A DNA stretch of 41,590 bases from a virus (Duplodnaviria; Heunggongvirae; Uroviricota; Caudoviricetes). The DNA lies in IMG/VR virus record IMGVR_UViG_2585427774_000008. One strand, 5' to 3'. Under the pieces are notes generated by a model that worked only from the letters and a program-made list of their open reading frames with translations, searched no databases and was not told the DNA's origin. A program made the position numbers and the translations under genes. Below, in pieces: positions 1 through 41,590 of the stretch. The first letter of the stretch is position 1. Each line of letters starts with the position of its first letter.

Positions 1-1194
1 ATGATCACCGACACAAAGCTCAGGAAGGCGCTCGGCAAGAAAAGAGATGATATCGAGATTATTTCTGATTCGCACGGGCTCAACGCCAGAATCAGCCAGG
101 CCGGAAAAATATCATTTTTCTATCGGTATCGCTGGGCCGGTAAAGCGGTAAAACTCAATGTTGGTGATTATCCTGCAATGAGTATCACCCAGGCAAGAGA
201 GCGTCGCCAACAATTCAGAAACTGGTTAACTGAGGGACTGGATCCGCGAGAGCAGGTGAAGCTGGATAAGCAGACCCGACAGGAAGCGATGTCCGTTGCC
301 GAAGCGTTCAATTACTGGATTGAAAGGCACTGTATCGCTAACGGGCTAGTTAAAGTCGATTACTATCGCCAGGTGTTTGAGAAACATATCGCCGAACCGA
401 TGAAGAATGTCAAAGTCGATAACACAGCGAAAATGCACTGGATCAACGTCTTCGATTCTATAGAAAGCAGGGTGATGGCTCATTACATGCTTTCGCTGTG
501 CAAACGGGCGTTTAGGTTCTGCGTTAACAGAAGTGTGATCGCCTCAAACCCACTCGAGGGATTACTGCCATCTGATGTCGGGCAAAAGCCTAAAAAGAGA
601 ACTCGCAGGATGGACGATGACGATCTGCGCAAAATCTATCAGTGGTTGAAAAGCCATATGTCGATAGAGTCCGTTTTCCTGGTGAAATTTATTATGCTTA
701 CCGGATGCCGTACGGCTGAGATTCGACTTAGTGAGAGATCATGGTTTCGATTGGATGATAATGAGTGGGTCGTGCCTGCGGGCAGTTATAAAACTCGGGT
801 ACATATTAGAAGGGGACTCTCAGACGCCGCCGTTAACCTGGTCAGAAATCACCTCAAGAAAATAAACACCAATCACCTGGTGACTTCACAACGTAAAATT
901 GATGGCGGGATCAAAGATTCGCCCGTTCATTCACCTGTGGCATCCAATTACGCCCGTTCTATTTGGAATGGAACAGGTATGGCAGAGTGGTCGCTTCATG
1001 ATATGAGGCGGACGATAGCCACAAATCTCTCTGAGTTAGGTTGCCCGCCGCACGTAATTGAAAAGCTGCTCGGGCATCAGATGGTGGGGGTTATGGCGCA
1101 TTACAACCTTCATGACTATATCGATGATCAGAAACACTGGCTCCGCGTTTGGCAGAGCCATCTTGAAGAGATCATCGGAGAGCCCTTCAGTTAA
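1..1194 (+). CDS. int: Phage integrase (tyrosine recombinase)
   Basis: 397-aa ORF; C-terminal catalytic region typical of tyrosine recombinases (LHDMRRT...GHQ...HYNLHDY); window begins at its ATG. Confidence 0.9.
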
Positions 1195-16196: not shown

Positions 16197-16583
16197 ATGT
16201 CCGATCCAATTTCCGGTACTGGGCTGGCTGGTGGTGCCCTGACGGGTGCCAGTGTTTATGGACTGCTGACCGGAACTGATTACGGCGTTGTATTTGGCGC
16301 ATTTGCAGGGGCTGTATTCTACATAGCAACAGCAGCGGATCTGAGCGCATCGCGCCGACTGGCATATTTTATCGTGTCGTATATTGCCGGGATCCTTTGC
16401 TCTGGGTTGGTTGGCTCCAAGCTGGCAAGCTTGACCGGATACAGTGATAAACCTCTGGATGCCATTGGTGCCGTAATCGTATCTGCTTTAGCCGTTAAGA
16501 TCCTGACGTTCCTGAATAATCAGGATATCGGGTCGCTGGTGGCGCTCATAACGCGCCGGGGAGGTTCAGGTGGAGCTAAATGA
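16197..16583 (+). CDS. Putative holin
   Basis: 128-aa ORF with AAGAGGGGG SD; Gly/Ala-rich hydrophobic helices; first gene of lysis cassette. Confidence 0.6.
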   Translation: MSDPISGTGLAGGALTGASVYGLLTGTDYGVVFGAFAGAVFYIATAADLSASRRLAYFIVSYIAGILCSGLVGSKLASLTGYSDKPLDAIGAVIVSALAVKILTFLNNQDIGSLVALITRRGGSGGAK

Positions 16584-16851
16584 CCCGACAGCAACTATAA
16601 ACGCGCTGTTATGTGCTTGTGTTGTTATTACTCTGATGTTTTATCGTCGTGGTGATTCGCGGCATCGTCCTTGGGTTTCACGTTTAGCCTGGCTGATTAC
16701 TGTTACATACAGTGCTGTTCCGTTGGCCTATCTCTGTGGGATTTATCCCCATTCCTCATGGCCCATTATCGTGGCGAATACTATTTTTCTTTCCGTGCTG
16801 GTGGCCGTCAGAGGCAACGTTGCACGCCTGGTTGATCATCTGAGGCACTAA
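16570..16851 (+). CDS. Second holin-like membrane protein
   Basis: 93-aa ORF from GTG with GGGGAGG SD; two to three hydrophobic segments; overlaps neighbours. Confidence 0.5.
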   Translation: MELNDPTATINALLCACVVITLMFYRRGDSRHRPWVSRLAWLITVTYSAVPLAYLCGIYPHSSWPIIVANTIFLSVLVAVRGNVARLVDHLRH

Positions 16852-17465
16852 TGAACCAACAATTATTTCAAAAGGCGGCTGGTATCAGCGCCGGACTGGC
16901 TGTGCGCTGGTTTCAACCAGTAGATGCAGCGATGAAAGAATTCGGCATTACAGCACCCGCGGATCAGGCCATGTTCATCGCTCAGGTAGGTCATGAGTCA
17001 GGCGGCTTTAGCGCTGTAGTTGAAAATTTGAACTACACACCATCTGCGCTGGTGGCGACCTTCGGAAAGAGGATCACACAGCAGCAGGCTGATGCGCTTG
17101 GCAGAACAACCGAACACGCAGCCCGCCAGGATGCTATCGCCAATCTGGTGTATAGCAACCGCCTGGGTAACAAAGCGCCCGGCGACGGCTGGAAATATCG
17201 CGGCAGAGGGTTAATTCAAATCACTGGCCTCGACAATTATCGCACCTGCGGGGCGGCGTTGAAGTTAGACCTCGTTACTTCACCTGAACAGCTCGAACAG
17301 GAACTTCAGGCAGCACGCTCTGCCGCCTGGTTCTACACATCCAAAGGGTGCATGGCCTACGGTGCCGATATTACTCGTGTTACGCGCATCATTAACGGCG
17401 GCCTGAATGGCATTGATGACCGCAAAATCCGCTACAACAAAGCGCGGGCGGCGCTGCTGGTATGA
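16851..17465 (+). CDS. Endolysin, glycoside hydrolase family 19 (chitinase-like)
   Basis: 204-aa ORF; GH19-type motifs AQVGHESGGF, NLNY, GRGLIQITGLDNY. Confidence 0.85.
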   Translation: MNQQLFQKAAGISAGLAVRWFQPVDAAMKEFGITAPADQAMFIAQVGHESGGFSAVVENLNYTPSALVATFGKRITQQQADALGRTTEHAARQDAIANLVYSNRLGNKAPGDGWKYRGRGLIQITGLDNYRTCGAALKLDLVTSPEQLEQELQAARSAAWFYTSKGCMAYGADITRVTRIINGGLNGIDDRKIRYNKARAALLV

Positions 17466-17854
17466 AAATGAGTTATTGGGTGCTCATTGTGACGTTTATC
17501 GCCTGTATTGCAGGCGGTCTTGTCTGGTCAGCGGATCACTACCATGGAAAATTTCTGGAGGAACAGCGTCGCGCTGACGATGCAGAACAGCGTGCTGATT
17601 CCTCTGAGACCATCACCGCGAATGTCCTGCGCACCGTAGCAATAACGAACATCATTCTGGAGACAAACCAACATGCTAAGCAGCAGATCGCACTGGAGTC
17701 ACAGAGAGCCGAGAACGATATCAAAGCTGCTGTTGCGGATGATGATTGTGCTGTTCGTGTTGTGCCTGCTGGCGCAGTTAAGCGGCTGCACGAATACGCG
17801 AACGGTCTACGTGCCGGTTCCGGTAGTTCCATTACCAGCCAGCCTGACGGCTGA
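17462..17854 (+). CDS. Rz-like inner-membrane spanin
   Basis: 130-aa ORF, N-terminal TM helix (YWVLIVTFIACIAGGLVW) then charged coiled-coil-like region. Confidence 0.7.
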   Translation: MKMSYWVLIVTFIACIAGGLVWSADHYHGKFLEEQRRADDAEQRADSSETITANVLRTVAITNIILETNQHAKQQIALESQRAENDIKAAVADDDCAVRVVPAGAVKRLHEYANGLRAGSGSSITSQPDG

Positions 17855-18017
17855 AACACCCCAGCCAGAATTACCCGACCCGTTTACGTGGGGAGCAAGT
17901 CTTGATCTGAATGTCGCGTTGCTGTCAGCGCTGGCGCAGTGCAACAGGGATAAGGCTGATATCAGGACTTTCGAGAACAACAGGGCAGGACAAACCGATG
18001 GCACGATTAAACGTTGA
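17739..18017 (+). CDS. Rz1-like outer-membrane lipoprotein spanin, +1 frame overlapping Rz
   Basis: 92 aa from ATG at 17739; lipobox LLAQLSGC followed by Pro-rich sequence (VYVPVPVVPLP); extends past Rz stop. Confidence 0.65.
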   Translation: MMIVLFVLCLLAQLSGCTNTRTVYVPVPVVPLPASLTAETPQPELPDPFTWGASLDLNVALLSALAQCNRDKADIRTFENNRAGQTDGTIKR

Positions 18018-30408: not shown

Positions 30409-30596
30409 CCTTCAACAGCCTGCCGGGCGGTGAAGATTTTATTCTTCGCCCGGCGCTTGCCTTCCATATTGACCAGAAAGACCTTAACAGCGGTGCGGTA
30501 GACCTTTGCCGCATCGCGCTTCTCAATGACTACCTCGACATGCGCGAGGATAACGACGCCCGGGTAGATAAATGGAGAGCGGCCAATGAGCGGTAA
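30351..30596 (+). other. Programmed -1 frameshift site and extension ORF (GT-like chaperone product)
   Basis: Slippery heptamer A_AAT_TTT at 30354-30360 (within GGGAAATTTTTTG); the -1 frame stays open for about 80 codons to TAA at 30594-30596, overlapping the tape measure start. Confidence 0.55.
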
Positions 30597-32667
30597 CGCA
30601 GATACGATTAAAGATTTCCTTGTTTCGCTGGGATTCGATATCGATCAGGCTGGCGCTAATAAGTTTGAAGCCGTGCTGAAAGGCGTTACAGCTAACGTTC
30701 TGAAGGTCGGCGCGGTGGTGGAAGGCGCAGCGCTGAGCATTGTCGGATTTACCACTCAGATCGCGAACGGTCTGGATAAAATTTACTGGGCATCCCAGCG
30801 GACGGGGGCCAGTGTCCAGGGCATCAAAGCGCTGGGATACGCCGCATCGCAAACCGGTGCCAGCGCCGAGTCGGCTATGTCCTCCCTCGAAGGGCTGGCC
30901 GGTTTCATGCGTAGCAATCCGGGCGCGGAAGGCTTCCTGAACCGCCTGGGCGTCCAGACTCGCGATGCCAGCGGAAAGATGCGTGATACTGCGGCCATCT
31001 TTACTGGCGTTGGGCAAAAGCTCAACAACATGCCGTATTACCGCGCGAAACAATACGCGCAGATGCTTGGCATCGATGAAAACACGCTGATGGCGATGCG
31101 GCGCGACATGAATGGCTTTACCGCCGATTACCAGTCGATGCTGCAAAAGACAGGGTTCAACGCTGATAAAGCGGCTGTTCAGTCCAACAAATTCATGACG
31201 TCCATGCGCGGGCTTACGTCGCTGTTCGGCATCATGCGGGACAAGATCGGCTCAAACCTCGCTGGTGGCCTGGCTGGTTCGCTGGACAGCCTGCGGCGGC
31301 GCATCCTCGACAATTTCCCGAAGATTGAAGAGACGCTGACCAGAGTTATTAAAGGCGTGATCTGGCTTGCGAACGCATTCACGAGAATGGCGTGGCGGCT
31401 GATACAGGGCGCTGGCTCTGTCATCGACTGGTGGAAGCGTCTTGACGATGGCAGTAAAAATCTGCTGAAAATATTCGGTGCTCTACTGGTCGCATGGCGT
31501 CTGCTTAATTCTGCGTTCCTGAAATCCCCGATTGGAATTATCACCACACTGATTCTGGCGATCGGATTGCTGTACGACGATTACCAGACGTGGAAAGAGG
31601 GCGGTAAAAGCCTGATTGACTGGTCCAAATGGCAGCCAGAAATTGAGCAGGCAAAGAAGGTGTTCAAGTGGCTGCGCGATAAGTTTCTGGAGCTCAAGGA
31701 CAACCTCGGCGGCTGGAAAAATACGCTCACCATCCTGTTTGGCTTTCTGGCTGGTGCGAAGCTGGTCTCCATGCTCACTGGCATCGGGCGACTTGTCGCC
31801 GGATTTATGGGGCTTGGTAAGGCAATTGGCGGCTCTATTGGTGGGCTGGGTAAGCTGGCGCAGGGGATCGCACAGCTGGCAATCAAGAATCCATGGTTGC
31901 TTATGTTCATTCCTGCCAACAATACGCCGACCACCAGTGAAGAAATGGCGTCGATTGGCGGTATAGGCAGCAATATCGTACCTGAAAGGCAGCAGGCATA
32001 TGAGGCGCTGAGAAAGGAAAATCCCGGCAAAGACTTTTTCACTGATGAGCAAATCCAGCGAAAAATTCAGGAGATGGGACTGGAGCCGGAGCAGCGAGCG
32101 CAGTCGGTTAAGCGACCTCAGGCGACGGCCCAGGGCAAGGTATTGCTCGACTGGATGGGGCCAATGTTCAATAAACTGGAGTCGCTTTATCAGCTGCCAG
32201 CTGGCCTGTTGAAAAGCGTGGCGATCACCGAGTCGGGTGGTAACCAGTTCGCCATATCCGGCGCAGGCGCGAAAGGACTGTTTCAGTTTATGGATGGCAC
32301 GGCGCGCGACATGGGCCTGCGTGGGAATGATGTATTCGACCCGGAAAAGTCAGCTCAGGCAGCCGCTAAGTACCTCAGCCAGCTGTTGCGGCAGAACGGC
32401 GGAGACCTTAGCAAAGCACTGGCATCATATAACTGGGGGATCGGGAATGTTAAGCGTTATGGAATGGGGCTAATGCCGCAGGAAACGCGCAACTACATTC
32501 CGAAAGTAATGAGCAATATGCCCACCAGCGCCCCGGTGATTCAGCAGGAAACGAATATTAACATCCACGGCGTTTTCGATCCGCGCGAGGCTGCCCGTTT
32601 GACTGTTGACCGTCAAAAGGGCGTGAATTCACAGTTAACCCAGCAACTCCCCGCAGGACCGAGATAA
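30586..32667 (+). CDS. Tail tape measure protein with C-terminal lytic transglycosylase (SLT) domain
   Basis: 693-aa ORF; central hydrophobic/Gly-rich segments; C-terminal SLT motifs ITESGGNQFAISGAGAKGLFQFM...YNWG. Confidence 0.8.
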   Translation: MSGNADTIKDFLVSLGFDIDQAGANKFEAVLKGVTANVLKVGAVVEGAALSIVGFTTQIANGLDKIYWASQRTGASVQGIKALGYAASQTGASAESAMSSLEGLAGFMRSNPGAEGFLNRLGVQTRDASGKMRDTAAIFTGVGQKLNNMPYYRAKQYAQMLGIDENTLMAMRRDMNGFTADYQSMLQKTGFNADKAAVQSNKFMTSMRGLTSLFGIMRDKIGSNLAGGLAGSLDSLRRRILDNFPKIEETLTRVIKGVIWLANAFTRMAWRLIQGAGSVIDWWKRLDDGSKNLLKIFGALLVAWRLLNSAFLKSPIGIITTLILAIGLLYDDYQTWKEGGKSLIDWSKWQPEIEQAKKVFKWLRDKFLELKDNLGGWKNTLTILFGFLAGAKLVSMLTGIGRLVAGFMGLGKAIGGSIGGLGKLAQGIAQLAIKNPWLLMFIPANNTPTTSEEMASIGGIGSNIVPERQQAYEALRKENPGKDFFTDEQIQRKIQEMGLEPEQRAQSVKRPQATAQGKVLLDWMGPMFNKLESLYQLPAGLLKSVAITESGGNQFAISGAGAKGLFQFMDGTARDMGLRGNDVFDPEKSAQAAAKYLSQLLRQNGGDLSKALASYNWGIGNVKRYGMGLMPQETRNYIPKVMSNMPTSAPVIQQETNINIHGVFDPREAARLTVDRQKGVNSQLTQQLPAGPR

Positions 32668-33269
32668 TGGATATTTTATCAGCGATTTTTCGCCAGCAAT
32701 CCCGGCGAATTGGAATATTAATCCCCAGCGTGGTTGTTTCTGAAAAGCATTCTGATGCGCTAGAAATTACTGAGCACCCGGTGGAGAAGCCAACAACGAA
32801 TAGCGCGTCGGGTTTCATCGCCGATCATGCGTATAAGCGCCCCAGCGAAGTCACGATGGAATGCGGCTTCGCAGGTGGCGGTTCGTTGCTGGACTTCATT
32901 GATACATCGTCAATCGGCCTCAGCGCCGGACTTAGCCCGAAAGAGACCTATCAGCAACTACTGGATCTCCAGTCCTCTCGGGTGCCGTTCGATGTAGTGA
33001 CCGGAAAGCGGGTTTACAGCAATATGCTGGTGCGAGCCATCGAGGTGACAACGGATAAAACCAGCGAGAACGTGCTGAACTGCACGCTTACCCTGCGTGA
33101 AGTGATCATGTCGCAGACGCAGAGCGTTAGCGTTGCAGATAAATCAGATATGCAGGATGGCGTCAGCACATCGGCGGTGCAAAATTCCGGGACGAAATCC
33201 ACTACACAGCCAAACGAATCCTTGCTGAGCCAGCTTGGCGGAAGCGTTACATCAGCATTCGGGGGATGA
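32667..33269 (+). CDS. Hypothetical tail/baseplate protein
   Basis: 200-aa ORF, TAATG overlap with tape measure. Confidence 0.5.
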   Translation: MDILSAIFRQQSRRIGILIPSVVVSEKHSDALEITEHPVEKPTTNSASGFIADHAYKRPSEVTMECGFAGGGSLLDFIDTSSIGLSAGLSPKETYQQLLDLQSSRVPFDVVTGKRVYSNMLVRAIEVTTDKTSENVLNCTLTLREVIMSQTQSVSVADKSDMQDGVSTSAVQNSGTKSTTQPNESLLSQLGGSVTSAFGG

Positions 33270-33270
33270 T

Positions 33271-33576
33271 ATGCAGTTTAACGAAATACCGCTTTCTCCT
33301 GACAATCAGCAGTTCCGCGTTTTGCTGGGCAATACCACCTATACGCTCAGGATCATCTGGCGCGATGCGGCTGGCTGGATCATGGACGTGATGGATAGCG
33401 GCGGTGCTGCGCTTCTTTCTGGCGTACCTCTCCTGACCGGCGTGAACCTATTACGACAATATCCACAGCTTGGCATTGATGGCGCGCTGGTGGTGGCGAC
33501 TGATAAGGGCGCACCAGACGAGCCCACCAAAACCAACCTCGGCACATACAGCCACCTCATTTTCGTACAGGAGTAG
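33271..33576 (+). CDS. Hypothetical tail protein
   Basis: 101 aa from ATG at 33271 with GGGGGA SD. Confidence 0.5.
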   Translation: MQFNEIPLSPDNQQFRVLLGNTTYTLRIIWRDAAGWIMDVMDSGGAALLSGVPLLTGVNLLRQYPQLGIDGALVVATDKGAPDEPTKTNLGTYSHLIFVQE

Positions 33577-33578
33577 AA

Positions 33579-34646
33579 ATGTCTCTTAACTGGATGCGCC
33601 ATTTTGAGCTGCAACTGTTGGACCAGAACGGGCAGGGCGTTTCCCTGTCTGATTTTAAGGTCACGTTCCAGATCGAGTGGGCAGATACACGCTGGCCGCG
33701 AGTGGCGAACGTGAAAATTTACAACCTTTCGACCGATACCACGAACAAGATACTGGGGCAGGAGTTTGCCAAAATTCGCATCATTGCCGGGTATGACGGT
33801 ATAGCGCCGGATGTTGATGCGAGCCAGGTTGGTGTGTCCCGGGAGATTTCACCAGACCAGATAGGGCAGGTGAACGGTCAGAACTACGGCCTGATTTTTG
33901 ACGGTGATATTCGCTTCACCGTCACCGGGAAGGACAACATCACCGATTCCTGGGTGCTGATTCAGGCCATCAGTAACCACGAAGCGTTCCTCTACGCGAC
34001 TACCATCACCACGCTTGCCGCTGGTTATACCGTTGCGGACCTGCACCGGGCGACTATGCAGGATTTCAACGCGTTCGGCGTGACGCAGGGCATTACCGGT
34101 GACTTTCCTGATACCGTGTTTCCTCGTGGCCGTGCGATTTATTCATCCACCCGTAACGTGATGGATAATATTGCTGCGCAGTGCAAAGCGACATGGCAGC
34201 TGGTGGATGGTCAGGTCCAGATGGTGCCGGAGGATAAATATATTCACGAAGCCATTGTGTTGAATGCCGATACTGGCCTGATCGGTATGCCGCAACAAAC
34301 GATGGGCGGCGGAGTAAACGTGCGGTGCCTGATAAACCCAAACATCCGTATTAATGGTCTTATCCAGCTCGATCAGGCTTCGGTGTACCGCGCCGCGCTC
34401 GGCAATAGCGAAATCGCACAGTCGCCCGGGCGTATCACCGAAACAGAAGAGAACGGCAACCGTGTGCTGACCGGCACGACGTCACAGGCTGCCAGCATTG
34501 CGACGGATGGCGTTTATATCGTCAAAGCTATCGACTATACTGGCGACACCAGAGGTCAGGCGTGGTACATGGATTTGATGTGTTTTGCGCGTGGCGCTCG
34601 TGACCTGATTAGCCAGTCGACTATAGCTCGCTCAGGAGGAAATTAA
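33579..34646 (+). CDS. Hypothetical baseplate/tail protein
   Basis: 355-aa ORF in tail operon. Confidence 0.5.
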   Translation: MSLNWMRHFELQLLDQNGQGVSLSDFKVTFQIEWADTRWPRVANVKIYNLSTDTTNKILGQEFAKIRIIAGYDGIAPDVDASQVGVSREISPDQIGQVNGQNYGLIFDGDIRFTVTGKDNITDSWVLIQAISNHEAFLYATTITTLAAGYTVADLHRATMQDFNAFGVTQGITGDFPDTVFPRGRAIYSSTRNVMDNIAAQCKATWQLVDGQVQMVPEDKYIHEAIVLNADTGLIGMPQQTMGGGVNVRCLINPNIRINGLIQLDQASVYRAALGNSEIAQSPGRITETEENGNRVLTGTTSQAASIATDGVYIVKAIDYTGDTRGQAWYMDLMCFARGARDLISQSTIARSGGN

Positions 34647-35537
34647 GTGGGTACAAATAAGAACGGAATTCGATATAGCGCACTTTTTCTTTCCGGGTTG
34701 CTCTTATCCGGGGGCGCGAGTGCAGGCTTTAATTCCGCGCAGAACGCTGAGTACAAAAGACGTCCAGGATGGCAGCCGATAGTAATTTTATCGACAGATG
34801 ATTGTCAGACATGGAAATCTAAAGGGAAGTCACTAATTGACTGGAGTGGCGAGATCTGTGGTCCTGACGGGTTGATTAAGGCAATCAATAAAAAGCCGGA
34901 GAATATACCAGCTTTTTATGCTGCATATCATGAGTACGGCACAGGTGGAGTTAGGGCTATCGATGTAAGAGATAATTCTCAGCTAAATTATCTCAATTTT
35001 GTAAATGATTTAGCTAAGAAACTTTCTTCTTCGGCTGTTGTATTAAAGATTTATGATGATTATATCATTGATAGAAAACCCATGGGGCTTGCAGAGGTTT
35101 CACGAGAAAATTTTGTAAAACAGCTAAATGAGTTATCGCTGAAGCAACCTGCCATCTATCAAAAAATGAACGACGTAGCCAAGGCTGATTACGAGAAAAG
35201 TAGTAATGTTCACAGTAACGAAAAGCTTGGCGTGAATTACAAAACAGTCTGTGGTCCTTATACGATTGATCTGTCTTCTGCTGATGGTTGGGCCAGAATT
35301 AATGGCGCAAAACCAGAGACGCAAAAAATTAGCCCAATCGGCTCTGGTGGTAGCACCAAAGGGGAACCGGATAACATCAAGATGGAGTGGATGGCTGCCA
35401 CTAATCAACCCGGCCGCTGGGTTGGGCTTGAGTACATCAAGCGCAACGGAAAAGCTATTCTCAACGCACAGTGGTTGCAGGCCAGCATAGACGCGCCGCG
35501 CCAGTATGCAACATACGACTGCCGAAAAGTAAAATAG
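34647..35537 (+). CDS. Secreted/periplasmic protein with signal peptide (moron), function unknown
   Basis: 296-aa ORF from GTG with AGGAGG SD; N-terminal signal-peptide-like MGTNKNGIRYSALFLSGLLLSGGASA; four Cys; region appears AT-rich. Confidence 0.6.
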   Translation: MGTNKNGIRYSALFLSGLLLSGGASAGFNSAQNAEYKRRPGWQPIVILSTDDCQTWKSKGKSLIDWSGEICGPDGLIKAINKKPENIPAFYAAYHEYGTGGVRAIDVRDNSQLNYLNFVNDLAKKLSSSAVVLKIYDDYIIDRKPMGLAEVSRENFVKQLNELSLKQPAIYQKMNDVAKADYEKSSNVHSNEKLGVNYKTVCGPYTIDLSSADGWARINGAKPETQKISPIGSGGSTKGEPDNIKMEWMAATNQPGRWVGLEYIKRNGKAILNAQWLQASIDAPRQYATYDCRKVK

Positions 35538-35555
35538 CCCGCCAGATAGGCGGGC
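35537..35555. terminator. Hairpin between convergent genes
   Basis: gcccgcc-agata-ggcgggc inverted repeat. Confidence 0.4.
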
Positions 35556-35560
35556 ATGCG

Positions 35561-35851
35561 TCAAAAATATTGAGCTTTAATTATAATAAACACAATAATT
35601 ACGAACAGGATGTTTCTAATTATTTTTTGCTTATGAGTAAGTTGTTTTTTTTCTGTCGATTTCCCGGGAGAGTAAAGGTTAGTGGTATGCGACAGCCCCG
35701 TGCCGGGAAGGCCATTTGTCATCTTTACGCCTTTTTTCCCGATGTTAATGGTGGAACCTTTACCACCAATTGAAGTGCTTACTCCGCTTTTACTAATGTT
35801 GATCGCGAGTCCGGGCGCAATCCGGATTCTTTTACGAAATCTAAATCCCAT
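35561..35851 (-). CDS. DUF4236-like small membrane-anchored protein
   Basis: 96-aa ORF with AGGAG SD; N-terminus MGFRFRKRIRIAPGLAINISKSG recalled as DUF4236-type; C-terminal TM helix ILFVIIVFIII. Confidence 0.55.
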   Translation of the reverse strand: MGFRFRKRIRIAPGLAINISKSGVSTSIGGKGSTINIGKKGVKMTNGLPGTGLSHTTNLYSPGKSTEKKQLTHKQKIIRNILFVIIVFIIIKAQYF

Positions 35852-36037
35852 TTGTTACTCCTGTAGTCAATAATGCGATGGTGCAGGTCCACTCTATGGC
35901 GGCTTCATGGCTGAAATTGATTTTCAATGCTTACTTGTTGCAAACATATCCTAATACACCTTGTGAATGTGTGCCATTGCAGCGGAAAAGCCTTACTTCA
36001 CACTGATGTAGCTTAGTTACTAAGAGATAATTGATAC

Positions 36038-36063
36038 CAAACCAGCTTCGGCTGGTTTTTTTA
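36038..36063 (+). terminator. Rho-independent terminator
   Basis: aaccagc-ttcg-gctggtt hairpin followed by TTTTTTT. Confidence 0.65.
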
Positions 36064-36073
36064 TGGGGGTTTT

Positions 36074-36814
36074 ATGCCAATCCCAACTCAATCACAGATC
36101 GGCGGTGAGCAGCAGACCGCGCAGGCCATTGCCGATTCTGTGTCTACCCAGATGCGCGTAGCGATGCCCGGCATCATTCAGTCGTTCGATCCTGACACTG
36201 TTACCTGCACAGTAGAGGTAGCGCTTCGCGGTATTGTTGGCGATGGCTCCACCGAATTAAAACCGCTGGTGGATGTGCCGGTTATCTTCCCGCGCGGCGG
36301 CGGTTGCACGCTGACCTTTCCGGTAAAAGAAGGCGACGAGTGCCTGCTGATCTTTGCCGACCGTTGCATCGATTTCTGGTGGCAGAGCGGCGGCGTTCAG
36401 GAGACCGTCGATCCGCGACAGCATGACTTATCTGATGCGTTCGCCATCGTTGGCCCGCAGTCGCAAGCACAGAAAATCAGCGGTATCAGTACCAGCGCCG
36501 CGCAGCTGCGAACCGATGATGGTGCGGCGTTCGTAGAGGTTGCCGCAGGACATAACATCACCGTTCAAACACCGGGCCAGCTCACGGCTACGGCTGAAGG
36601 TGGAACGACAATCACATCCCCGACTATCACGCTGAACGGCAACGTAACGATTAATGGCAATCTGTCTCAGGGAATGGGCGAAAGTGGCGGTACTGCGACG
36701 ATGCTTGGGCCGGTGACGGTGACTAACGATGTGAAGGCTGGAGGTAAGAGCCTCATCCAGCATACCCATGGCGGTGTGCAGAATGGCAGCGGGAATACTA
36801 CCGCGCCTAATTAA
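36074..36814 (+). CDS. Baseplate spike protein, gpV-like
   Basis: 246-aa ORF; C-terminal region TLNGNVTINGNL...HTHGGVQNGSGNT typical of gpV-type spikes. Confidence 0.65.
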   Translation: MPIPTQSQIGGEQQTAQAIADSVSTQMRVAMPGIIQSFDPDTVTCTVEVALRGIVGDGSTELKPLVDVPVIFPRGGGCTLTFPVKEGDECLLIFADRCIDFWWQSGGVQETVDPRQHDLSDAFAIVGPQSQAQKISGISTSAAQLRTDDGAAFVEVAAGHNITVQTPGQLTATAEGGTTITSPTITLNGNVTINGNLSQGMGESGGTATMLGPVTVTNDVKAGGKSLIQHTHGGVQNGSGNTTAPN

Positions 36815-36832
36815 AAACTACCAAACAGACAA

Positions 36833-36867
36833 AAGCCCCGGGTGCGCTAACACTTCGGGGCTTTTTA
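36833..36867 (+). terminator. Rho-independent terminator
   Basis: agccccg...cggggct stem followed by TTTTT. Confidence 0.5.
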
Positions 36868-36940
36868 CTTTCTGCACCTTGAGGATAGCAAGGGAGAATA
36901 TGTGATTAATTTTAGCAAACTGATACGGGAGTTGCGAGTC

Positions 36941-37039
36941 ATGGGCGAAAAACTACCCAACTGGAAATTCTTCCTCATCTGGGCCGTGTTCTTTTTATTC
37001 GGTCTGTCAAGCGTTATTAGCGCTATACGCTGGTGGTGA
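36941..37039 (+). CDS. Small transmembrane peptide, doubtful
   Basis: 32-aa ORF not in track (MGEKLPNWKFFLIWAVFFLFGLSSVISAIRWW) with GGGAG SD. Confidence 0.3.
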   Translation: MGEKLPNWKFFLIWAVFFLFGLSSVISAIRWW

Positions 37040-37042
37040 TTT

Positions 37043-38596: not shown

Positions 38597-39273
38597 GCAA
38601 ATACACCGAACTGATCACTAACTACCATGCTACCAAGCCACTCTTTTTTGACCATATAGATCTGAGCACCCGCCCGCTGATTGATGTGTCCAGCACTATG
38701 TCAGGGCTTGTAACAGCCTTCGATATCGATACGGCGGTTGGCGTGCAACTCGATATCCTCGGCCTGTGGATTGGGCGTAGTCGTATAGTCAGCCAGCCAA
38801 TTAGCGGCGTTTATTTCAGCTGGGACACTGACGGGCTCGGATATGACCAGGGCATCTGGCAAGGGCCATATGATCCTGATTCTGGCTATACGACGCTGAG
38901 TGATGAGACGTACCGCATCATTCTGAAAGCGAAAATCGCTATCAACAACTGGGATGGTCGGAACGACTCTCTGCCTCCCATCCTTGACGCTGCTACCGCA
39001 GGCTCTGGACTGAAGATGCAGATCGTCGATAACCAGGACATGACGATATCGGTCTGGGTTTTTCCCGAGACTGATATTTCTGATGTGTCACTCGAACTGA
39101 TAGCCGCTATCAAACAGGGTTATCTCACCGTTAAAGCTGCTGGTGTATGGGCTGGCGGCGTTGAAACACCCTCAGTCGAAACACCGTCCGAAGGAACAAA
39201 ATTCTTTGGATTTGACATGGATAACGAATACATCGCCGGTTTTGATGACGGCGCATGGGGGAGATTACTTTAA
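38593..39273 (+). CDS. Baseplate/tail protein I-like
   Basis: 226 aa from ATG at 38593 overlapping J stop. Confidence 0.5.
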   Translation: MSKYTELITNYHATKPLFFDHIDLSTRPLIDVSSTMSGLVTAFDIDTAVGVQLDILGLWIGRSRIVSQPISGVYFSWDTDGLGYDQGIWQGPYDPDSGYTTLSDETYRIILKAKIAINNWDGRNDSLPPILDAATAGSGLKMQIVDNQDMTISVWVFPETDISDVSLELIAAIKQGYLTVKAAGVWAGGVETPSVETPSEGTKFFGFDMDNEYIAGFDDGAWGRLL

Positions 39274-39935
39274 TGGCTGGAACTAATGATTTTAAAGCGT
39301 TTGCGACAGATGCTAATGCAAATGTTACCTCGCAGGAGGAATGGGAGACGCTAACCGCACTGAAGAAAGGATTCTCCTCGGGTAAAGCATCCAGCGCACA
39401 GGTCAGTAAAGCGCTGCGCCAACCGTCGACGATGGCGGCTGTACTGGGGCAGTTTATCGCGAACGCCGAACTGGACGCGCTCGATGATGGTGACGTTGAT
39501 GGACTGGTGGCAAAGCTGGCGACAGCGATTACCACAAACCTTGGTCTGGGAGAAATTGCCACTGTAGCTGATATTCAGGCTGGTACAGCCAGTAAGTTGG
39601 TGGATGCGGAGGGGCTAAAAAAATACCTGCCAACGAAAGTAATGCAGGTATCCGGTTTTATTCGAATTCCTGACGTTCCTGGTGGGACCATAATTCAGTG
39701 GGGACAAGTTACAGAAACCATAAATGAGGGGACTAAAAACGTGGTATTACCCACGCCATTCCCTAATTCTGGACGTTTTGCAATTGCAATTCCTTTGAAT
39801 CTTGCAGGGGATACCTCATGTGACATTTTTGCACAATTACAAAGTGCATCCCTTACGGGAATTAATTTCTTCTTTTCCTGGGTGTCCAGTTCAACCCCGG
39901 CAAATGGTTTCCAATGGTTCGCAATAGGATATTAA
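39273..39935 (+). CDS. Tail fibre protein (constant N-terminal part plus variable C-terminal part)
   Basis: 220 aa from ATG at 39273 with GGGAGA SD; conserved N-terminus MAGTNDFKAFAT...; 3' half appears AT-rich; contains candidate recombination site. Confidence 0.7.
   Translation: MAGTNDFKAFATDANANVTSQEEWETLTALKKGFSSGKASSAQVSKALRQPSTMAAVLGQFIANAELDALDDGDVDGLVAKLATAITTNLGLGEIATVADIQAGTASKLVDAEGLKKYLPTKVMQVSGFIRIPDVPGGTIIQWGQVTETINEGTKNVVLPTPFPNSGRFAIAIPLNLAGDTSCDIFAQLQSASLTGINFFFSWVSSSTPANGFQWFAIGY
39529..39554 (+). promoter_or_regulatory. Candidate invertase crossover site (left), hix/gix-like
   Basis: TTACCACAAACC-TT-GGTCTGGGAGAA; left half matches hix half-site consensus TTATCAAAAACC at 10 of 12 positions; same TT core as right site. 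Confidence 0.5.
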
Positions 39936-39936
39936 A

Positions 39937-40368
39937 ATGAGAGCGTATTTTATTCCATCGGTACCAACATTCATTTCTGAATCATGGAAAAGTGACGGTA
40001 CCTATACAAAAGAAAACTGGCCCTCTGATGCTGTGCTCGTTACCGAAGAAGAGACTGCTGAATACTGGATGACCATACCACCTGATGGGAAAAAACTTGG
40101 TGCTGTGGATGGGAAACCAGCGTGGGTTGATATTCCGCCCCAGACCCGGGAAGAATTGATTACGACTGCTGAGAATGAACGTCAGCGGCTGTTGGCTCAC
40201 GCTGATGCGATGATGCTCGACTGGCGTACAGAATTAATGCTGGGAGAAATCAGCGACGCCAACAAAGCAACATTGTCGGCGTGGCTGGCATATAAAAACG
40301 ATGTGAAATCGGTTGATGTGACAATCGACCCTGAGCATGTTAGCTGGCCTGTTCCCCCGGAAGCGTAG
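39937..40368 (+). CDS. Tail fibre assembly protein (Tfa)
   Basis: 143-aa ORF directly after fibre gene; C-terminal region typical of Tfa chaperones. Confidence 0.7.
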   Translation: MRAYFIPSVPTFISESWKSDGTYTKENWPSDAVLVTEEETAEYWMTIPPDGKKLGAVDGKPAWVDIPPQTREELITTAENERQRLLAHADAMMLDWRTELMLGEISDANKATLSAWLAYKNDVKSVDVTIDPEHVSWPVPPEA

Positions 40369-40690
40369 GCCATACGGGTTTTGCTGTATCAACTCGCATC
40401 AGCAAGACCCGGTATTTTTTCCATTCAGAAAGCGCGGCGGTTTCCTCATCAGTCGAGATACCGGCATCAACCGCATCCTGTCGCCAGGCTATCTCGGCGT
40501 CAGCAATGGCTCGTAATTGCAACTTATTAGCTTCGGCTTTCTCGATCAATTCTGCCTGCGACGGTGGATGATTTAATATTGAATTAACCTCATCTTCCGT
40601 AATTTCTTTTTTATTACCAATAAACTTATCTTGTGAACCGTCATCCTCATAGGCATAAATTATATCTGCATCATCGATAAAATACTTCAT
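40340..40690 (-). CDS. Alternative tail fibre assembly protein (Tfa')
   Basis: 116-aa ORF convergent with Tfa; MKYFIDDADIIYAYEDDG...KKYRVLLMRVDTAKPVWPTLP. Confidence 0.7.
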   Translation of the reverse strand: MKYFIDDADIIYAYEDDGSQDKFIGNKKEITEDEVNSILNHPPSQAELIEKAEANKLQLRAIADAEIAWRQDAVDAGISTDEETAALSEWKKYRVLLMRVDTAKPVWPTLPGEQAS

Positions 40691-40989
40691 CTTAGCTCCC
40701 TCCAGTTTACACTTGAGATACCAGTGGTAATAACCTGGTAGGTGGAATTATTGGGAATAACGGGGCAATAACCTCCTGCGCCACTTATTGTCACACCATT
40801 TATTCGGACATTCACAGACCAGCTTGCTGATGGTCGGACAAAATCAAGCAATAACTGAATTGGTTTTCCTGTTGTGTTTGTGTAAACCACTCCAATACTT
40901 CTACTTGATGTCATGTCTTGCCATGTCTGATCAACTCCGAGGCTTACTTTTGCAGCTTCTCCCAATTGAACCTTTTTTATAACCATCAA
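40687..40989 (-). CDS. Alternative tail fibre variable C-terminal segment (S'v-like)
   Basis: 100-aa ORF; N-terminus KKVQLGEAAKV parallels NLGLGEIATV in the + strand fibre at the left crossover site. Confidence 0.55.
   Translation of the reverse strand: MMVIKKVQLGEAAKVSLGVDQTWQDMTSSRSIGVVYTNTTGKPIQLLLDFVRPSASWSVNVRINGVTISGAGGYCPVIPNNSTYQVITTGISSVNWRELR
40957..40982 (-). promoter_or_regulatory. Candidate invertase crossover site (right), hix/gix-like
   Basis: Minus strand reads TTATAAAAAAGG-TT-CAATTGGGAGAA; about 60 nt upstream of the invertase ATG. Confidence 0.5.
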
Positions 40990-41041
40990 AAATCTGGTGA
41001 TGCTTCGCCGTTTCTCCTGTTTTCATAACAGGAGAAATCCC

Positions 41042-41590
41042 ATGATTTACGGTTATGCCCGAGTATCAACAAACCACCAGGACACTGAATTGCAACTAAC
41101 GGCGCTCAAGTCAGCGGGTTGTGAGAAAATTTTTGAAGAGCATGCCAGCGGGAGGAAATCGAATCGGCCGGTTCTAAAACGGCTGATCGCCACTATGCAG
41201 CCGGGGGATGAACTGGTGGTCTGGAAGCTGGACAGGATAGGCCGCAACGTTCTGCATGCGCTGTTGATGTTCCAGCAGTTACAGGAAAAGGGTATCAACT
41301 TCCGCAGTATTACCGATGGCGTGGATCTCAAAACAGCCAGCGGCCGCTATAAATTTCGTAACATCCTTTCCGCAGCACAATATGAATCTGATCTTAATAG
41401 CGAACGTACCTTAGCAGGGCTGGCCGTAGCCAGGGCAAAAGGGCGAGTTGGTGGTCGCAGGCCTAAGTTCACGGATGAGCAATGGCGGGAAATGGGGGAG
41501 CGGATGGCAACCGGTGAATCACGACAAAGCGTATCAAAAACGTATGGAGTAGGGCTCTCAACTCTGTATAAAAAGTTTCCAGCTAGCTGA
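41042..41590 (+). CDS. Serine DNA invertase (Hin/Gin/Pin/Cin family)
   Basis: 182 aa from ATG at 41042 with AGGAG SD; strongly resembles Hin as recalled (GYARVST, LVVWKLDRIGRNV, GVGLSTLYKKFPA); stop coincides with window end. Confidence 0.9.
   Translation: MIYGYARVSTNHQDTELQLTALKSAGCEKIFEEHASGRKSNRPVLKRLIATMQPGDELVVWKLDRIGRNVLHALLMFQQLQEKGINFRSITDGVDLKTASGRYKFRNILSAAQYESDLNSERTLAGLAVARAKGRVGGRRPKFTDEQWREMGERMATGESRQSVSKTYGVGLSTLYKKFPAS

What the first reader, a model, noticed from the sequence alone, without database searches (positions are those of the whole stretch)
34647..35851. AT-rich two-gene insert in the tail cluster: signal-peptide protein plus convergent DUF4236-like membrane protein
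Between baseplate genes sits a 296-aa protein with a signal peptide and four cysteines, transcribed with the tail operon from a GTG with a strong SD, and a convergent 96-aa DUF4236-like protein with a C-terminal TM helix. Hairpins flank the insert (35537-35555 and 36038-36063). The secreted protein shares a short motif with the tape measure protein of this phage: DDCQTWKSKGKSLIDWS vs DDYQTWKEGGKSLIDWS (DNA 34797-34853 vs 31575-31634, diverged at nucleotide level). This could be a lysogenic-conversion or effector-like cargo.
Basis: partly seen in the sequence, partly recalled or inferred. Interest (0 to 1): 0.68.

Follow-up and report, generated by a model that had tools for sequence, protein, structure and literature searches.

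The report
Exported accessory proteins in tail-gene slot
Between two baseplate genes of this E. coli prophage lies a swap-prone cargo slot holding an uncharacterised exported two-domain protein, which copies a short invariant tape-measure motif, and a small DUF4236 membrane protein; they look like phage-competition genes, not toxins or tail parts, but no function is shown.

Summary

The "two-gene insert" reading is only partly right. The hub-to-spike interval is a variable cargo slot in Brunovirus-like prophages. The last about 100 residues of the 296-aa protein are the slot's resident gene, a small periplasmic beta-barrel (phrog_3443) present in most relatives examined. What is extra here is two separate AT-rich modules:
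- **A helical N-terminal domain.** It is rare (20 representatives among 1.84 billion proteins) and normally lipoprotein-anchored. The window copy has lost the lipid-attachment cysteine. The same domain sits in two satellite-like elements with P4-type primases.
- **The convergent DUF4236-plus-TM gene.** It is commoner cargo of the same slot.

Both genes are under strong purifying selection (dN/dS about 0.05). No toxin, effector, defence-system or virion-protein homology was found, and the spanins lie elsewhere.

The TMP motif is nearly invariant in this phage group's TMPs and is a family feature of the N-domain. The likeliest role is superinfection exclusion at the DNA-delivery step. This is inferred, not shown.

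The parts
31576..31626 (+). TMP motif DDYQTWKEGGKSLIDWS (TMP residues 331-347). It follows a hydrophobic helix (about residues 296-329) and precedes a second hydrophobic Gly-rich stretch.
   Evidence: The motif is identical in the TMPs of the window and L011, differs at one residue in L015 (DDYMTWK...), and is near-identical in phage SEN34, even where the TMP C-terminal domains differ.
33579..34646 (+). Baseplate hub gene (context). Homology to relatives breaks at about 34606-34616, which is the left edge of the variable slot.
   Evidence: Pfam E217_GP41 and phrog_196 baseplate hub; blastn breakpoints.
34634..34639 (+). Shine-Dalgarno site AGGAGG, 7 nt before the GTG start.
   Evidence: Read directly from the sequence.
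34647..34724 (+). Signal peptide (residues 1-26). The lipobox position L20-S21-G22-G23 (34704-34715) has Gly where homologues have the lipidated Cys. An A-S-A|G signal-peptidase-I-type site follows.
   Evidence: Alignments. The C. freundii allele P0021 has LLSGC, while the E. coli alleles have LLSGG. AF2 pLDDT is below 50 for residues 1-32.
34725..35237 (+). AT-rich helical N-terminal domain module (residues 27-197; helices at 33-185). It has invariant C53 and C71.
   Evidence: GC 0.39, GC3 0.36. dN/dS 0.05. The AF2 model is helical with pLDDT 80-97. Only 20 representatives were found among 1.84e9 proteins. It is absent from all 50,697 deposited phage genomes.
34797..34847 (+). TMP-like motif DDCQTWKSKGKSLIDWS (residues 51-67). 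The family consensus is DDCxTWKxGGKSLIxWSGExC.
35238..35537 (+). C-terminal beta-barrel domain (residues 198-296, plus stop). This is the phrog_3443 family, the resident periplasmic protein of the slot, with invariant C202 and C292.
35537..35555 (.). GC-rich hairpin between the convergent genes. It looks like a terminator on the minus strand, for the DUF4236 gene.
35561..35851 (-). DUF4236 gene, 96 aa: a basic Gly-rich DUF4236 domain (residues 3-55) followed by a C-terminal TM helix. AGGAG lies 7 nt before the ATG.
   Evidence: Pfam PF14020 E=1.8e-20. dN/dS 0.047. Found in 19 of 5426 complete E. coli genomes, once per genome. The exact protein sequence occurs on at least 1000 contigs.
35852..36038 (.). 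AT-rich intergenic stretch that travels with the DUF4236 cargo. It presumably holds that gene's promoter, but no consensus sigma-70 site was found.
36039..36065 (+). Intrinsic terminator immediately before the spike ribosome-binding site and ATG. This is the right edge of the variable slot.
   Evidence: It is present in all 14 loci with at least 6 different stem sequences and a largely constant T-run plus RBS.
36074..36814 (+). Baseplate spike gene, gpV-like (context).
   Evidence: Pfam N-terminal spike domain E=1.1e-41 plus the GpV Apex motif.

Best explanation
The hub-to-spike interval of this Brunovirus-like prophage is an accessory-gene slot closed by an intrinsic terminator.

**What is in the slot.**
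- **Resident gene.** Its usual occupant is a small Sec-exported, disulfide-bonded beta-barrel protein (phrog_3443).
- **N-terminal module.** In this window the 5' end of that gene has been replaced by an AT-rich module. The module encodes a signal peptide plus a rare helical domain, giving a 296-aa two-domain envelope protein.
- **Lipid anchor.** Homologues are lipoproteins. With no Asp at position +2, they are probably sorted to the outer membrane. The E. coli allele in the window has Gly in place of the lipidated Cys, so it is probably released as a soluble periplasmic protein.
- **Second cargo.** A second, independent gene encodes a tail-anchored DUF4236 membrane protein and is convergent with the first.

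**Proposed function (inferred).** These are phage-competition genes. The exported protein would act in the periplasm, the only compartment where it can meet an incoming phage's ejected tape measure protein. It would interfere with DNA delivery by kin phages through its copy of the nearly invariant membrane-proximal TMP motif, either as a decoy for the motif's partner or by binding the TMP itself.

**Shown:**
- gene structure;
- export signals;
- domain modularity;
- slot variability;
- purifying selection;
- the shared motif.

**Inferred:**
- expression in lysogens;
- final localisation;
- any exclusion phenotype;
- any role of the motif.

The confidence figure is for the exclusion and competition function. 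The anatomical description I hold at about 0.9.
For: - **Slot variability.** Ten E. coli relatives show at least seven configurations. After the phrog_3443 gene come DUF4236, Phd/Doc, or unknown proteins of 181, 128 (with signal peptide) or 53 aa. One relative instead has a 371-aa lipoprotein. Homology breaks at about 34606-34616 and resumes at about 36040-36056.
- **Terminator.** It is present with covarying stems in 14 loci.
- **C-domain.** It matches phrog_3443. Of 68 short forms, 67 have AxA-type Sec signal peptides.
- **Lipobox.** It is present in most long forms, lost in the window, and kept in the C. freundii allele.
- **N-domain.** It is rare and modular, fused to at least three different C-terminal domains. 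It also occurs in two satellite-like elements with P4-type primases, one of them next to a TumE toxin-antitoxin pair.
- **Selection.** dN/dS is 0.05-0.08.
- **Motif.** The match is 14/17 residues with divergent codons. hhalign gives E=4.6e-8. The motif is fixed or nearly so in TMPs whose other parts vary. Related TMP central regions occur in 78 phage records.
- **Not a spanin.** Holin, endolysin, Rz and Rz1 lie at 16197-18017.
- **Precedents.**
  - Exclusion lipoprotein genes inside the structural clusters of temperate coliphages have been tested experimentally (PMC11893012).
  - The TP-J34 lipoprotein Ltp targets the TMP (Bebeacua 2013, cited in PMC3952083).
Against: - The gene abuts the hub gene with coupled translation signals, and no good lysogenic promoter was found. 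The only candidate is a 9/12 match at 34513-34541, and such matches are about as frequent in shuffled sequence. Expression may therefore be late-lytic only.
- The motif does not co-vary with the cognate TMP. In L011 the TMP motif is unchanged while the lipoprotein motif has drifted to DDCETAKAGGKTLLKW.
- A weaker form of the motif occurs in distant N-domain proteins outside this phage group, at 4-10 of 17 residues. It may simply be a structural element of the domain, stapled by the invariant C53 and C71.
- The phrog_3443 barrel is conserved in position across a wide phage group, which is unusual for exclusion cargo.
Confidence: 0.45

Rival explanations
1. Lysogenic-conversion or host-fitness factors. 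The exported protein and the DUF4236 membrane protein would change the host envelope, for example serum resistance like lambda Bor, adhesion, or stress tolerance. They would have no role in phage-phage competition.
For: - Both products are targeted to the envelope.
- The region has foreign composition and sits in a variable slot.
- The carriers are gut and clinical Enterobacterales.
- Several slot occupants in relatives are also exported or membrane proteins of unknown function.
Against: - There is no similarity to Bor/Iss, adhesins or any virulence family.
- The shared TMP motif is left unexplained, as is the presence of the N-domain in satellite-like elements.
- The slot also carries Phd/Doc in one relative, which is typical of phage and mobile-element conflict cargo.
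Confidence: 0.2
2. A periplasmic function in the phage's own lytic cycle, expressed late with the tail operon. One possibility is protecting progeny from wasteful adsorption or ejection into debris, as T5 Llp does. Another is modulating the cell wall before lysis. Under this reading the barrel is a core gene and the N-domain a tethering add-on.
For: - The GTG start directly follows the hub stop, with the SD inside the hub's 3' end.
- The phrog_3443 gene is syntenic in 20 deposited phages, about 3 kb downstream of the TMP motif region, and across at least 80 protein clusters.
- No convincing independent promoter was found.
Against: - The gene can be replaced outright: L006 has a different C-terminal domain.
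- It can also be truncated without its signal peptide, as annotated in the isolated phage SEN34. It is therefore not essential.
- A terminator right before the spike gene would be an odd feature inside a purely late operon unless it insulates separately expressed genes.
Confidence: 0.2
3. The TMP resemblance is a relic or a shared structural or membrane-interface element with no functional link between the two proteins. This is compatible with any of the functions above.
For: - The similarity is confined to about 17-22 residues. An exhaustive profile search with the N-domain found no TMP.
- The motif is part of a Cys-stapled element conserved in distant N-domain proteins that are not in this phage group.
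- There is no co-variation with the cognate TMP.
Against: - Identity to the TMP 17-mer is highest (13-14 of 17) in the alleles closest to the window allele. It falls to 9-12 of 17 in more diverged same-family members and to 4-10 of 17 in N-domain proteins elsewhere.
- Synonymous sites differ, including serine codon classes, while the residues are kept. That argues for selection on the peptide in both proteins.
Confidence: 0.35
4. A secreted toxin or effector-like cargo.
For: A signal peptide, cysteines and foreign composition.
Against: - There is no adjacent immunity-like gene pattern and no secretion-system context.
- Homologues are lipid-anchored, so they stay on the producing cell.
Confidence: 0.04
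5. A virion or tail-assembly component.
For: Its position between the hub and spike genes, and the conserved synteny of the C-domain.
Against: - Sec or lipoprotein signal peptides are present in essentially all family members, whereas tails assemble in the cytoplasm.
- The gene is replaced or truncated in some relatives.
Confidence: 0.03

Closest known systems
Superinfection-exclusion lipoproteins encoded in phage tail or structural clusters (T5 Llp; phi80/N15 Cor; mEp021 Lpp021 and mEp010 Lpp010)
   Same: - It is an exported or lipid-anchored small to mid-size protein encoded inside the tail gene cluster of a temperate enterobacterial phage.
- It has disulfide-capable cysteines.
- It varies between related phages.
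   Different: - There is no sequence or fold similarity.
- Llp and Cor act on the outer-membrane receptor FhuA (my own knowledge) and sit next to receptor-binding genes. This gene sits between hub and spike and resembles the TMP.
- It has a two-domain modular build.
- No phenotype is known.
Ltp of Streptococcus thermophilus phage TP-J34, an exclusion lipoprotein whose target is the TMP (Bebeacua 2013, cited in PMC3952083)
   Same: It is a prophage lipoprotein family with a plausible link to the tape measure protein at the DNA-entry step.
   Different: - Ltp is from a Gram-positive host and has a helix-turn-helix-repeat fold.
- The TMP link there is genetic and experimental. Here it is only a shared 17-residue motif.
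Morons (independent transcription units inserted between phage late genes; PMC3594210)
   Same: Foreign base composition, a position between two late genes, presence that varies between relatives, and a terminator at the 3' end.
   Different: - No clear promoter was found.
- The first gene is translationally abutted to the hub gene.
- No relative was found in which hub and spike are directly adjacent, so this is a permanently occupied slot rather than a simple insertion.
[quoted passage not shown] 2022, PMC9122126)
   Same: - It is a fixed position in a mobile-element backbone where unrelated small cassettes replace each other.
- One relative carries a toxin-antitoxin pair there.
- The N-domain family also occurs in elements with P4-type primases.
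   Different: - This is a different phage group and a different position, inside the baseplate operon rather than next to cos.
- None of the cargo matches a PADLOC model.
- I did not establish that the satellite copies lie in the psu-int hotspot.
Pfam DUF4236 (PF14020) and phrog_3443
   Same: The 96-aa protein is a clear DUF4236 member. Residues 198-296 of the 296-aa protein are a clear phrog_3443 member.
   Different: Both families have no known function. Only one paper in the library mentions DUF4236, in passing.

Membership tests
Pfam DUF4236 (PF14020) | HMM score above the gathering threshold | tested here: met
   73.6 bits against a cut-off of 27, E=1.8e-20, covering profile positions 1-54 of 55.
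phrog_3443 (small exported beta-barrel, function unknown) | HMM match over the domain | tested here: met
   E=3.4e-34 for residues 198-296 against profile positions 21-114 of 115. Short forms align with invariant C202 and C292.
Bacterial lipoproteins | Signal peptide with a basic n-region and a hydrophobic core | tested here: met
   MGTNKNGIRYSALFLSGLLL, read directly from the sequence. No SignalP or LipoP was available.
Bacterial lipoproteins | Lipobox [LVI][ASTVI][GAS]C with the lipidated Cys | tested here: not met
   The window has L-S-G-G. 15 of the other 17 full-length homologues in A1, and the C. freundii allele P0021, have the Cys. The family is therefore a lipoprotein family, but the window allele is not a lipoprotein by this criterion.
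Moron | Base composition different from the flanking late genes | tested here: met
   GC is 0.39 for the N-domain and for DUF4236, against 0.54-0.57 in the flanks. GC3 is 0.36 against 0.63.
Moron | Own promoter | tested here: inconclusive
   Only weak consensus matches were found, at 34513-34541 on the plus strand (9/12) and at 8/12 on the minus strand upstream of DUF4236. The number of matches is no higher than in shuffled sequence.
Moron | Own terminator | tested here: met
   A minus-strand terminator-like hairpin at 35555-35537 and a plus-strand terminator at 36039-36065. The latter is present in all 14 loci.
Moron | Flanking genes directly adjacent in related phages | tested here: not met
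   All 13 relatives examined have something between hub and spike.
Known exclusion lipoproteins (Llp, Cor, Ltp) | Sequence or fold similarity | tested here: not met
Known exclusion lipoproteins (Llp, Cor, Ltp) | Exclusion phenotype when expressed | not testable with these tools
   This needs plating and DNA-entry assays.
Known anti-phage defence systems (PADLOC) | HMM match to a defence protein model | tested here: not met
   Only PDC-S15 at E=0.024 (11.7 bits) for the 296-aa protein, and nothing for DUF4236. Cargo proteins of relatives also gave none.
Spanins (Rz/Rz1) | Outer-membrane lipoprotein gene embedded in or next to the i-spanin gene in the lysis cassette | tested here: not met
   The Rz1-like LysC gene is at 17673-18017, within or overlapping 17462-17854, next to the holin and endolysin.
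Periplasmic lysozyme or transglycosylase inhibitors (MliC/PliC, Ivy) | Family HMM or close fold match | tested here: not met

The most novel reading that the evidence does not exclude
The helical N-domain is a periplasmic mimic of the nearly invariant membrane-proximal loop of this phage group's tape measure protein. Tethered to the outer membrane, or free in the periplasm in the Cys-less E. coli allele, it would capture the partner of that loop or poison TMP channel assembly. This would block genome delivery by kin phages. The same decoy module would be traded between prophage tail-cluster slots and satellite-like elements with P4-type primases, fused to different C-terminal domains.
Probability: 0.18. 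Interest if true: 0.75.

Novelty: new variant of a known kind. Interest (0 to 1): 0.45.

Why it matters
If the exclusion reading is right, three things follow:
- It would add an uncharacterised, modular family of envelope proteins to the short list of Gram-negative systems that act at the genome-delivery step.
- It would mark a very conserved 17-residue TMP element as functionally important. The periplasmic stage of myophage DNA entry is poorly understood.
- It would define a new accessory-gene hotspot inside a baseplate operon.

There is also a practical point. The gene is missed or truncated by standard annotation. It is called as 123 aa, 101 aa, a pseudogene, or not at all, so surveys of prophage cargo overlook it.

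Tried and rejected
- **Family and structure searches on the 296-aa protein.**
  - Pfam, NCBIfam and PADLOC gave nothing usable.
  - A PDB sequence search with the family profile gave nothing below E=1.
  - Foldseek against BFVD and PDB gave nothing below E=0.02.
  - afdb50 was unavailable.
- **Word-indexed search with a 63-aa TMP fragment.** It returned only five TMP fragments, which cost one of the three capped searches for little.
- **Weak second BLASTP alignment.** Residues 58-175 aligned to the TMP's SLT region at E=0.007. I considered a degenerate transglycosylase-like domain and rejected it, because neither the fold search nor the exhaustive profile search linked the N-domain to SLT or to any TMP.
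- **Spanin hypothesis.** Rejected.
- **P0064.** This 836-aa repeat protein hit by the N-domain profile appears spurious.
- **Rfam.** Nothing reached gathering score. A weak isrK-like hit at 35979-36061 (23 bits against 50) probably rests largely on the terminator hairpin.
- **Co-variation test.** Comparing the lipoprotein motif with the cognate TMP motif showed none, because the TMP motif barely varies.
- **Literature.** Searches for DUF4236 and for the Brunovirus slot found no functional data.
Full report
**1. Observation**

The region is as described.

- **Gene order.** The ORF listing and Pfam/PHROG scans give this order:
  - TMP with a C-terminal SLT domain, 30586-32667;
  - Dit-like protein, 32667-33269;
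  - plug, 33235-33576;
  - baseplate hub, 33579-34646;
  - a 296-aa ORF, 34647-35537 (+);
  - a 96-aa DUF4236 ORF, 35561-35851 (-);
  - gpV-like spike, 36074-36814;
  - a 45-aa TM ORF, a sheath-initiator-like gene, and baseplate J.
- **Start of the 296-aa ORF.** It starts at a GTG that directly follows the hub stop codon, with AGGAGG 7 nt upstream.
- **GC content.** GC falls to 0.35-0.45 across 34800-36150, against 0.52-0.59 in the flanks.

| Feature | GC | GC3 |
|---|---|---|
| N-domain part | 0.39 | 0.36 |
| C-terminal part | 0.50 | 0.52 |
| DUF4236 gene | 0.39 | 0.39 |
| Intergenic stretch 35852-36073 | 0.41 | - |
| Hub gene | 0.54 | 0.63 |
| Spike gene | 0.57 | 0.62 |

- **Hairpins.** Both exist.
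- **TMP match.** It is 14/17 residues and 32/51 nucleotides, with both serines in different codon classes. BLASTP gives E=2e-6 for the pair. The profile-profile comparison gives probability 94.9% and E=4.6e-8, limited to 42 columns.

**2. The 296-aa protein is a fusion of a resident gene and an extra module**

- **C-terminal domain.** PHROGs matches only residues 198-296, to phrog_3443, a 115-aa family of unknown function.
- **Short forms in relatives.** In most related E. coli prophages examined, the gene right after the hub is a protein of 114-118 aa. It consists of a Sec signal peptide and this domain.
  - At least 80 clusters of such short forms exist across Enterobacterales.
  - 67 of 68 have a signal peptide ending AxA|D(S/T/Q)QCG and no lipobox.
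- **Phage genomes.** tblastn of the full protein against 50,697 phage genomes finds only this C-terminal third, in 20 Brunovirus-like phages of Klebsiella, Escherichia, Salmonella, Citrobacter and Yersinia. It never finds the N-terminal two-thirds.
- **Replaced segment.** blastn against short-form relatives shows that window 34615-35281 (667 nt) replaces 142 nt.
- **AF2 model.** Built on 19 homologues, it has mean pLDDT 76.7.
  - Residues 1-32 are disordered.
  - Residues 33-185 are an all-helical domain with pLDDT mostly 80-97.
  - A short linker follows.
  - Residues 198-296 form a beta domain.
- **Fold searches.**
  - Foldseek against PDB and BFVD is non-significant.

**3. The long form is a lipoprotein family, and the window allele has lost the Cys**

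- Only 18 clusters of full-length homologues (43-99% identity) were found among 5.8 billion sequences.
- 15 of the other 17 full-length sequences in the alignment have a lipobox (..SGC....TGC..) at the end of the signal peptide.
- The window has L-S-G-G, with GGC where the others have TGC.
- The nearly identical C. freundii allele (P0021, seen on 88 contigs) has L-S-G-C. Several E. coli alleles share the Gly, so this is a lineage variant and not a sequencing error.
- An A-S-A|G site follows the hydrophobic core, so export with signal-peptidase-I cleavage is plausible. That is my reading of the sequence, not a prediction tool result.
- C53, C71, C202 and C292 are invariant, which fits one disulfide per domain in the periplasm.
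- dN/dS against the 82%-identical L001 allele is 0.052 for the N-domain and 0.078 for the C-domain. The long ORF is therefore a real gene.
- RefSeq and GenBank nevertheless often call it as 123 aa, 101 aa, a pseudogene, or nothing.

**4. The N-domain is a rare mobile module**

- An exhaustive HMM search with the N-domain profile against 1.84 billion representatives found 20 proteins.
- Most are 350-374-aa lipoproteins that carry the N-domain at residues about 35-200 and unrelated C-terminal domains.
- One of these types occupies the same hub-to-spike slot in E. coli AR_0119. It is the L006 371-aa protein, with BLASTP E=3e-8 to the window's N-domain.
- Two others lie in integrative elements with AlpA, DUF4222 and a Zn-ribbon/Toprim/DUF927 primase, or with a P4-type integrase next to a TumE toxin-antitoxin pair. 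These are satellite-like mobile elements. I did not check whether the position is the published psu-int hotspot (PMC9122126).
- No TMP was hit by the N-domain profile, so the TMP similarity is confined to the motif.

**5. The slot**

- **Frequency.** Among 5426 complete E. coli genomes, 72 carry this tail segment. Of those genomes, 19 carry the DUF4236 gene and 4 carry the N-domain, and all 4 also have DUF4236.
- **Boundaries.** Homology between relatives breaks at about 34606-34616 and resumes at about 36040-36056.
- **Cargo seen after the barrel gene** (none of the unknown proteins matches Pfam or PADLOC):

| Locus or phage | Cargo |
|---|---|
| Window, L001-L003 | DUF4236 gene, minus strand |
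| L004 | Phd/Doc toxin-antitoxin pair |
| L005 | 181-aa unknown |
| L008 | 128-aa protein with signal peptide |
| L007, L009, L010 | 53-aa unknown |
| L015 | 150-aa unknown, minus strand |
| L011 | possible 43-aa TM peptide (my own ORF reading) |
| SEN34 | 138-aa TM protein; barrel gene annotated without signal peptide |

- **Terminator.** In all 14 loci a GC-rich hairpin plus T-run sits immediately before the spike ribosome-binding site. There are at least six different stem sequences and a largely constant T-run/RBS.
- **Reading.** The slot has the composition, variability and terminator of a moron. It lacks a recognisable promoter, and it was not empty in any of the 14 loci examined.

**6. 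The TMP motif**

- **In the TMP.**
  - The motif follows a strongly hydrophobic helix (about residues 296-329).
  - It precedes an amphipathic stretch and a second hydrophobic Gly-rich segment.
  - It is identical in the TMPs of the window and L011 and differs at one residue in L015.
  - It is near-identical in SEN34 (EDYQTWKEGGQSLIDWEKW).
  - The TMP C-terminal domains nevertheless differ, SLT in some and another domain in others.
  - Related TMP central regions occur in 78 phage records.
- **In the N-domain family.** The consensus is DDCxTWKxGGKSLIxWSGExC.
- **Identity to the TMP 17-mer**.

| Group | Identical residues out of 17 |
|---|---|
| Alleles closest to the window | 13-14 |
| More diverged members of the same 296-aa family | 9-12 |
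| Distant N-domain proteins | 4-10 |

- **Co-variation.** None, because the TMP motif is nearly fixed.
- **Codons.** The divergent codons argue against a recent DNA copy and for selection on the peptide in both proteins.

**7. Mechanism**

- The prophage's lysis cassette, including Rz and Rz1, is elsewhere, so the lipoprotein family is not the o-spanin.
- Virion assembly is cytoplasmic, so a Sec- or Lol-targeted protein is not a tail part.
- The only situation in which this protein and a TMP share a compartment is when a phage ejects its TMP into the periplasm of a cell that expresses the protein.
- Three further points make superinfection exclusion at the DNA-delivery step the best-supported function:
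  - the position in the tail cluster;
  - the tested precedents of exclusion lipoproteins encoded in structural clusters of temperate coliphages (PMC11893012);
  - the precedent of a lipoprotein that targets the TMP (Ltp; Bebeacua 2013, cited in PMC3952083).
- I put this at about 0.45. A motif-dependent decoy mechanism specifically I put at about 0.18.
- Alternatives are a host-fitness factor, a late lytic periplasmic role, and a motif that is merely structural.
- For the DUF4236 protein I can say only the following.
  - It is a conserved, tail-anchored small membrane protein: dN/dS is 0.047 and the exact sequence occurs on at least 1000 contigs.
  - It has no known function and is an independent cargo of the same slot.
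  - A membrane-acting exclusion or abortive role is a guess.

**8. Novelty**

- Both families are known only as 'unknown function' entries (DUF4236, phrog_3443). The N-domain has no family entry in any library searched.
- Accessory slots and exclusion lipoproteins are known kinds.
- What is new here:
  - the slot's position inside the baseplate operon;
  - the modular N-domain shared with satellite-like elements;
  - the TMP-like motif.
- No function has been demonstrated, so I give it moderate interest.

Noticed in passing
window 36804-37042 (ORF 36902-37039 +): There is a second small indel slot between the spike and the sheath-initiator-like gene. It holds a 45-aa TM peptide (phrog_6632, E=3e-21). 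The slot is present in L002, L005, L006 and SEN34 and absent in L001, L003, L004, L007 and L008, where the spike and the next gene abut.
   Followed up: partly
window 36039-36065, and the equivalent site in L001-L011, L015, L016: An intrinsic terminator lies directly before the spike gene RBS in all 14 loci. The stems covary (at least 6 variants) and the T-run plus RBS is largely constant. This implies that late transcription must read through it, presumably by antitermination, and that it insulates the slot.
   Followed up: partly
window 34704-34715 (residues 20-23): The lipobox Cys is replaced by Gly (GGC for TGC) in the E. coli alleles. The 98%-identical C. freundii allele keeps Cys. This is a natural switch from a tethered to a presumably soluble form.
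   Followed up: partly
window 34647-35537; NZ_CP143627 (L001 2646-3536) and other RefSeq genomes: The 296-aa gene is systematically mis-annotated. It is called as a 123-aa or 101-aa protein from internal Met codons, as a partial pseudogene, or not called at all.
   Followed up: yes
window 30586-32667, compared with L011 3035-5041 and L015 3047-5011: The TMP C-terminal domains are swapped between relatives: SLT transglycosylase in the window and SEN34, and a different domain with an NNNPGNI motif in L011 and L015. The central hydrophobic region and the 17-residue motif stay essentially fixed.
   Followed up: partly
L017 7001-8125, L018 7001-8125, L020 7001-8071: N-domain lipoproteins (P0048, P0049) are encoded in integrative elements with P4-type primases or integrases. 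One is next to a TumE/HVO_A0114 toxin-antitoxin pair and another next to an IS element.
   Followed up: partly
window 35979-36061 (+): A weak Rfam isrK-like match (23.4 bits against gathering 50, E=0.036) ends at the terminator. It is probably driven by the hairpin. A 42-aa ORF at 35878-36006 overlaps it and is kept in L001, but nucleotide identity there is high.
   Followed up: no
L016 3582-3815 (Salmonella phage SEN34 gene 20): The phrog_3443 homologue in the isolated phage SEN34 is annotated as 77 aa without a signal peptide. Either the gene is truncated or its start is mis-called.
   Followed up: no
L011 7871-8002: In a 52%-identical relative, the lipoprotein gene is followed by a possible 43-aa TM peptide ORF (MGCWFKAIIIAALIALALYLF...) before the terminator.
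   Followed up: no
window 1-1194, 16197-18017, 39255-41590: The window spans what appears to be the whole prophage:
- a P4-type-arm integrase at the left end;
- holin, GH19 endolysin, Rz and Rz1 in the middle;
- tail fibre, tail-fibre assembly protein and a Hin/Gin-like invertase at the right end, which suggests invertible host-range switching.
   Followed up: no
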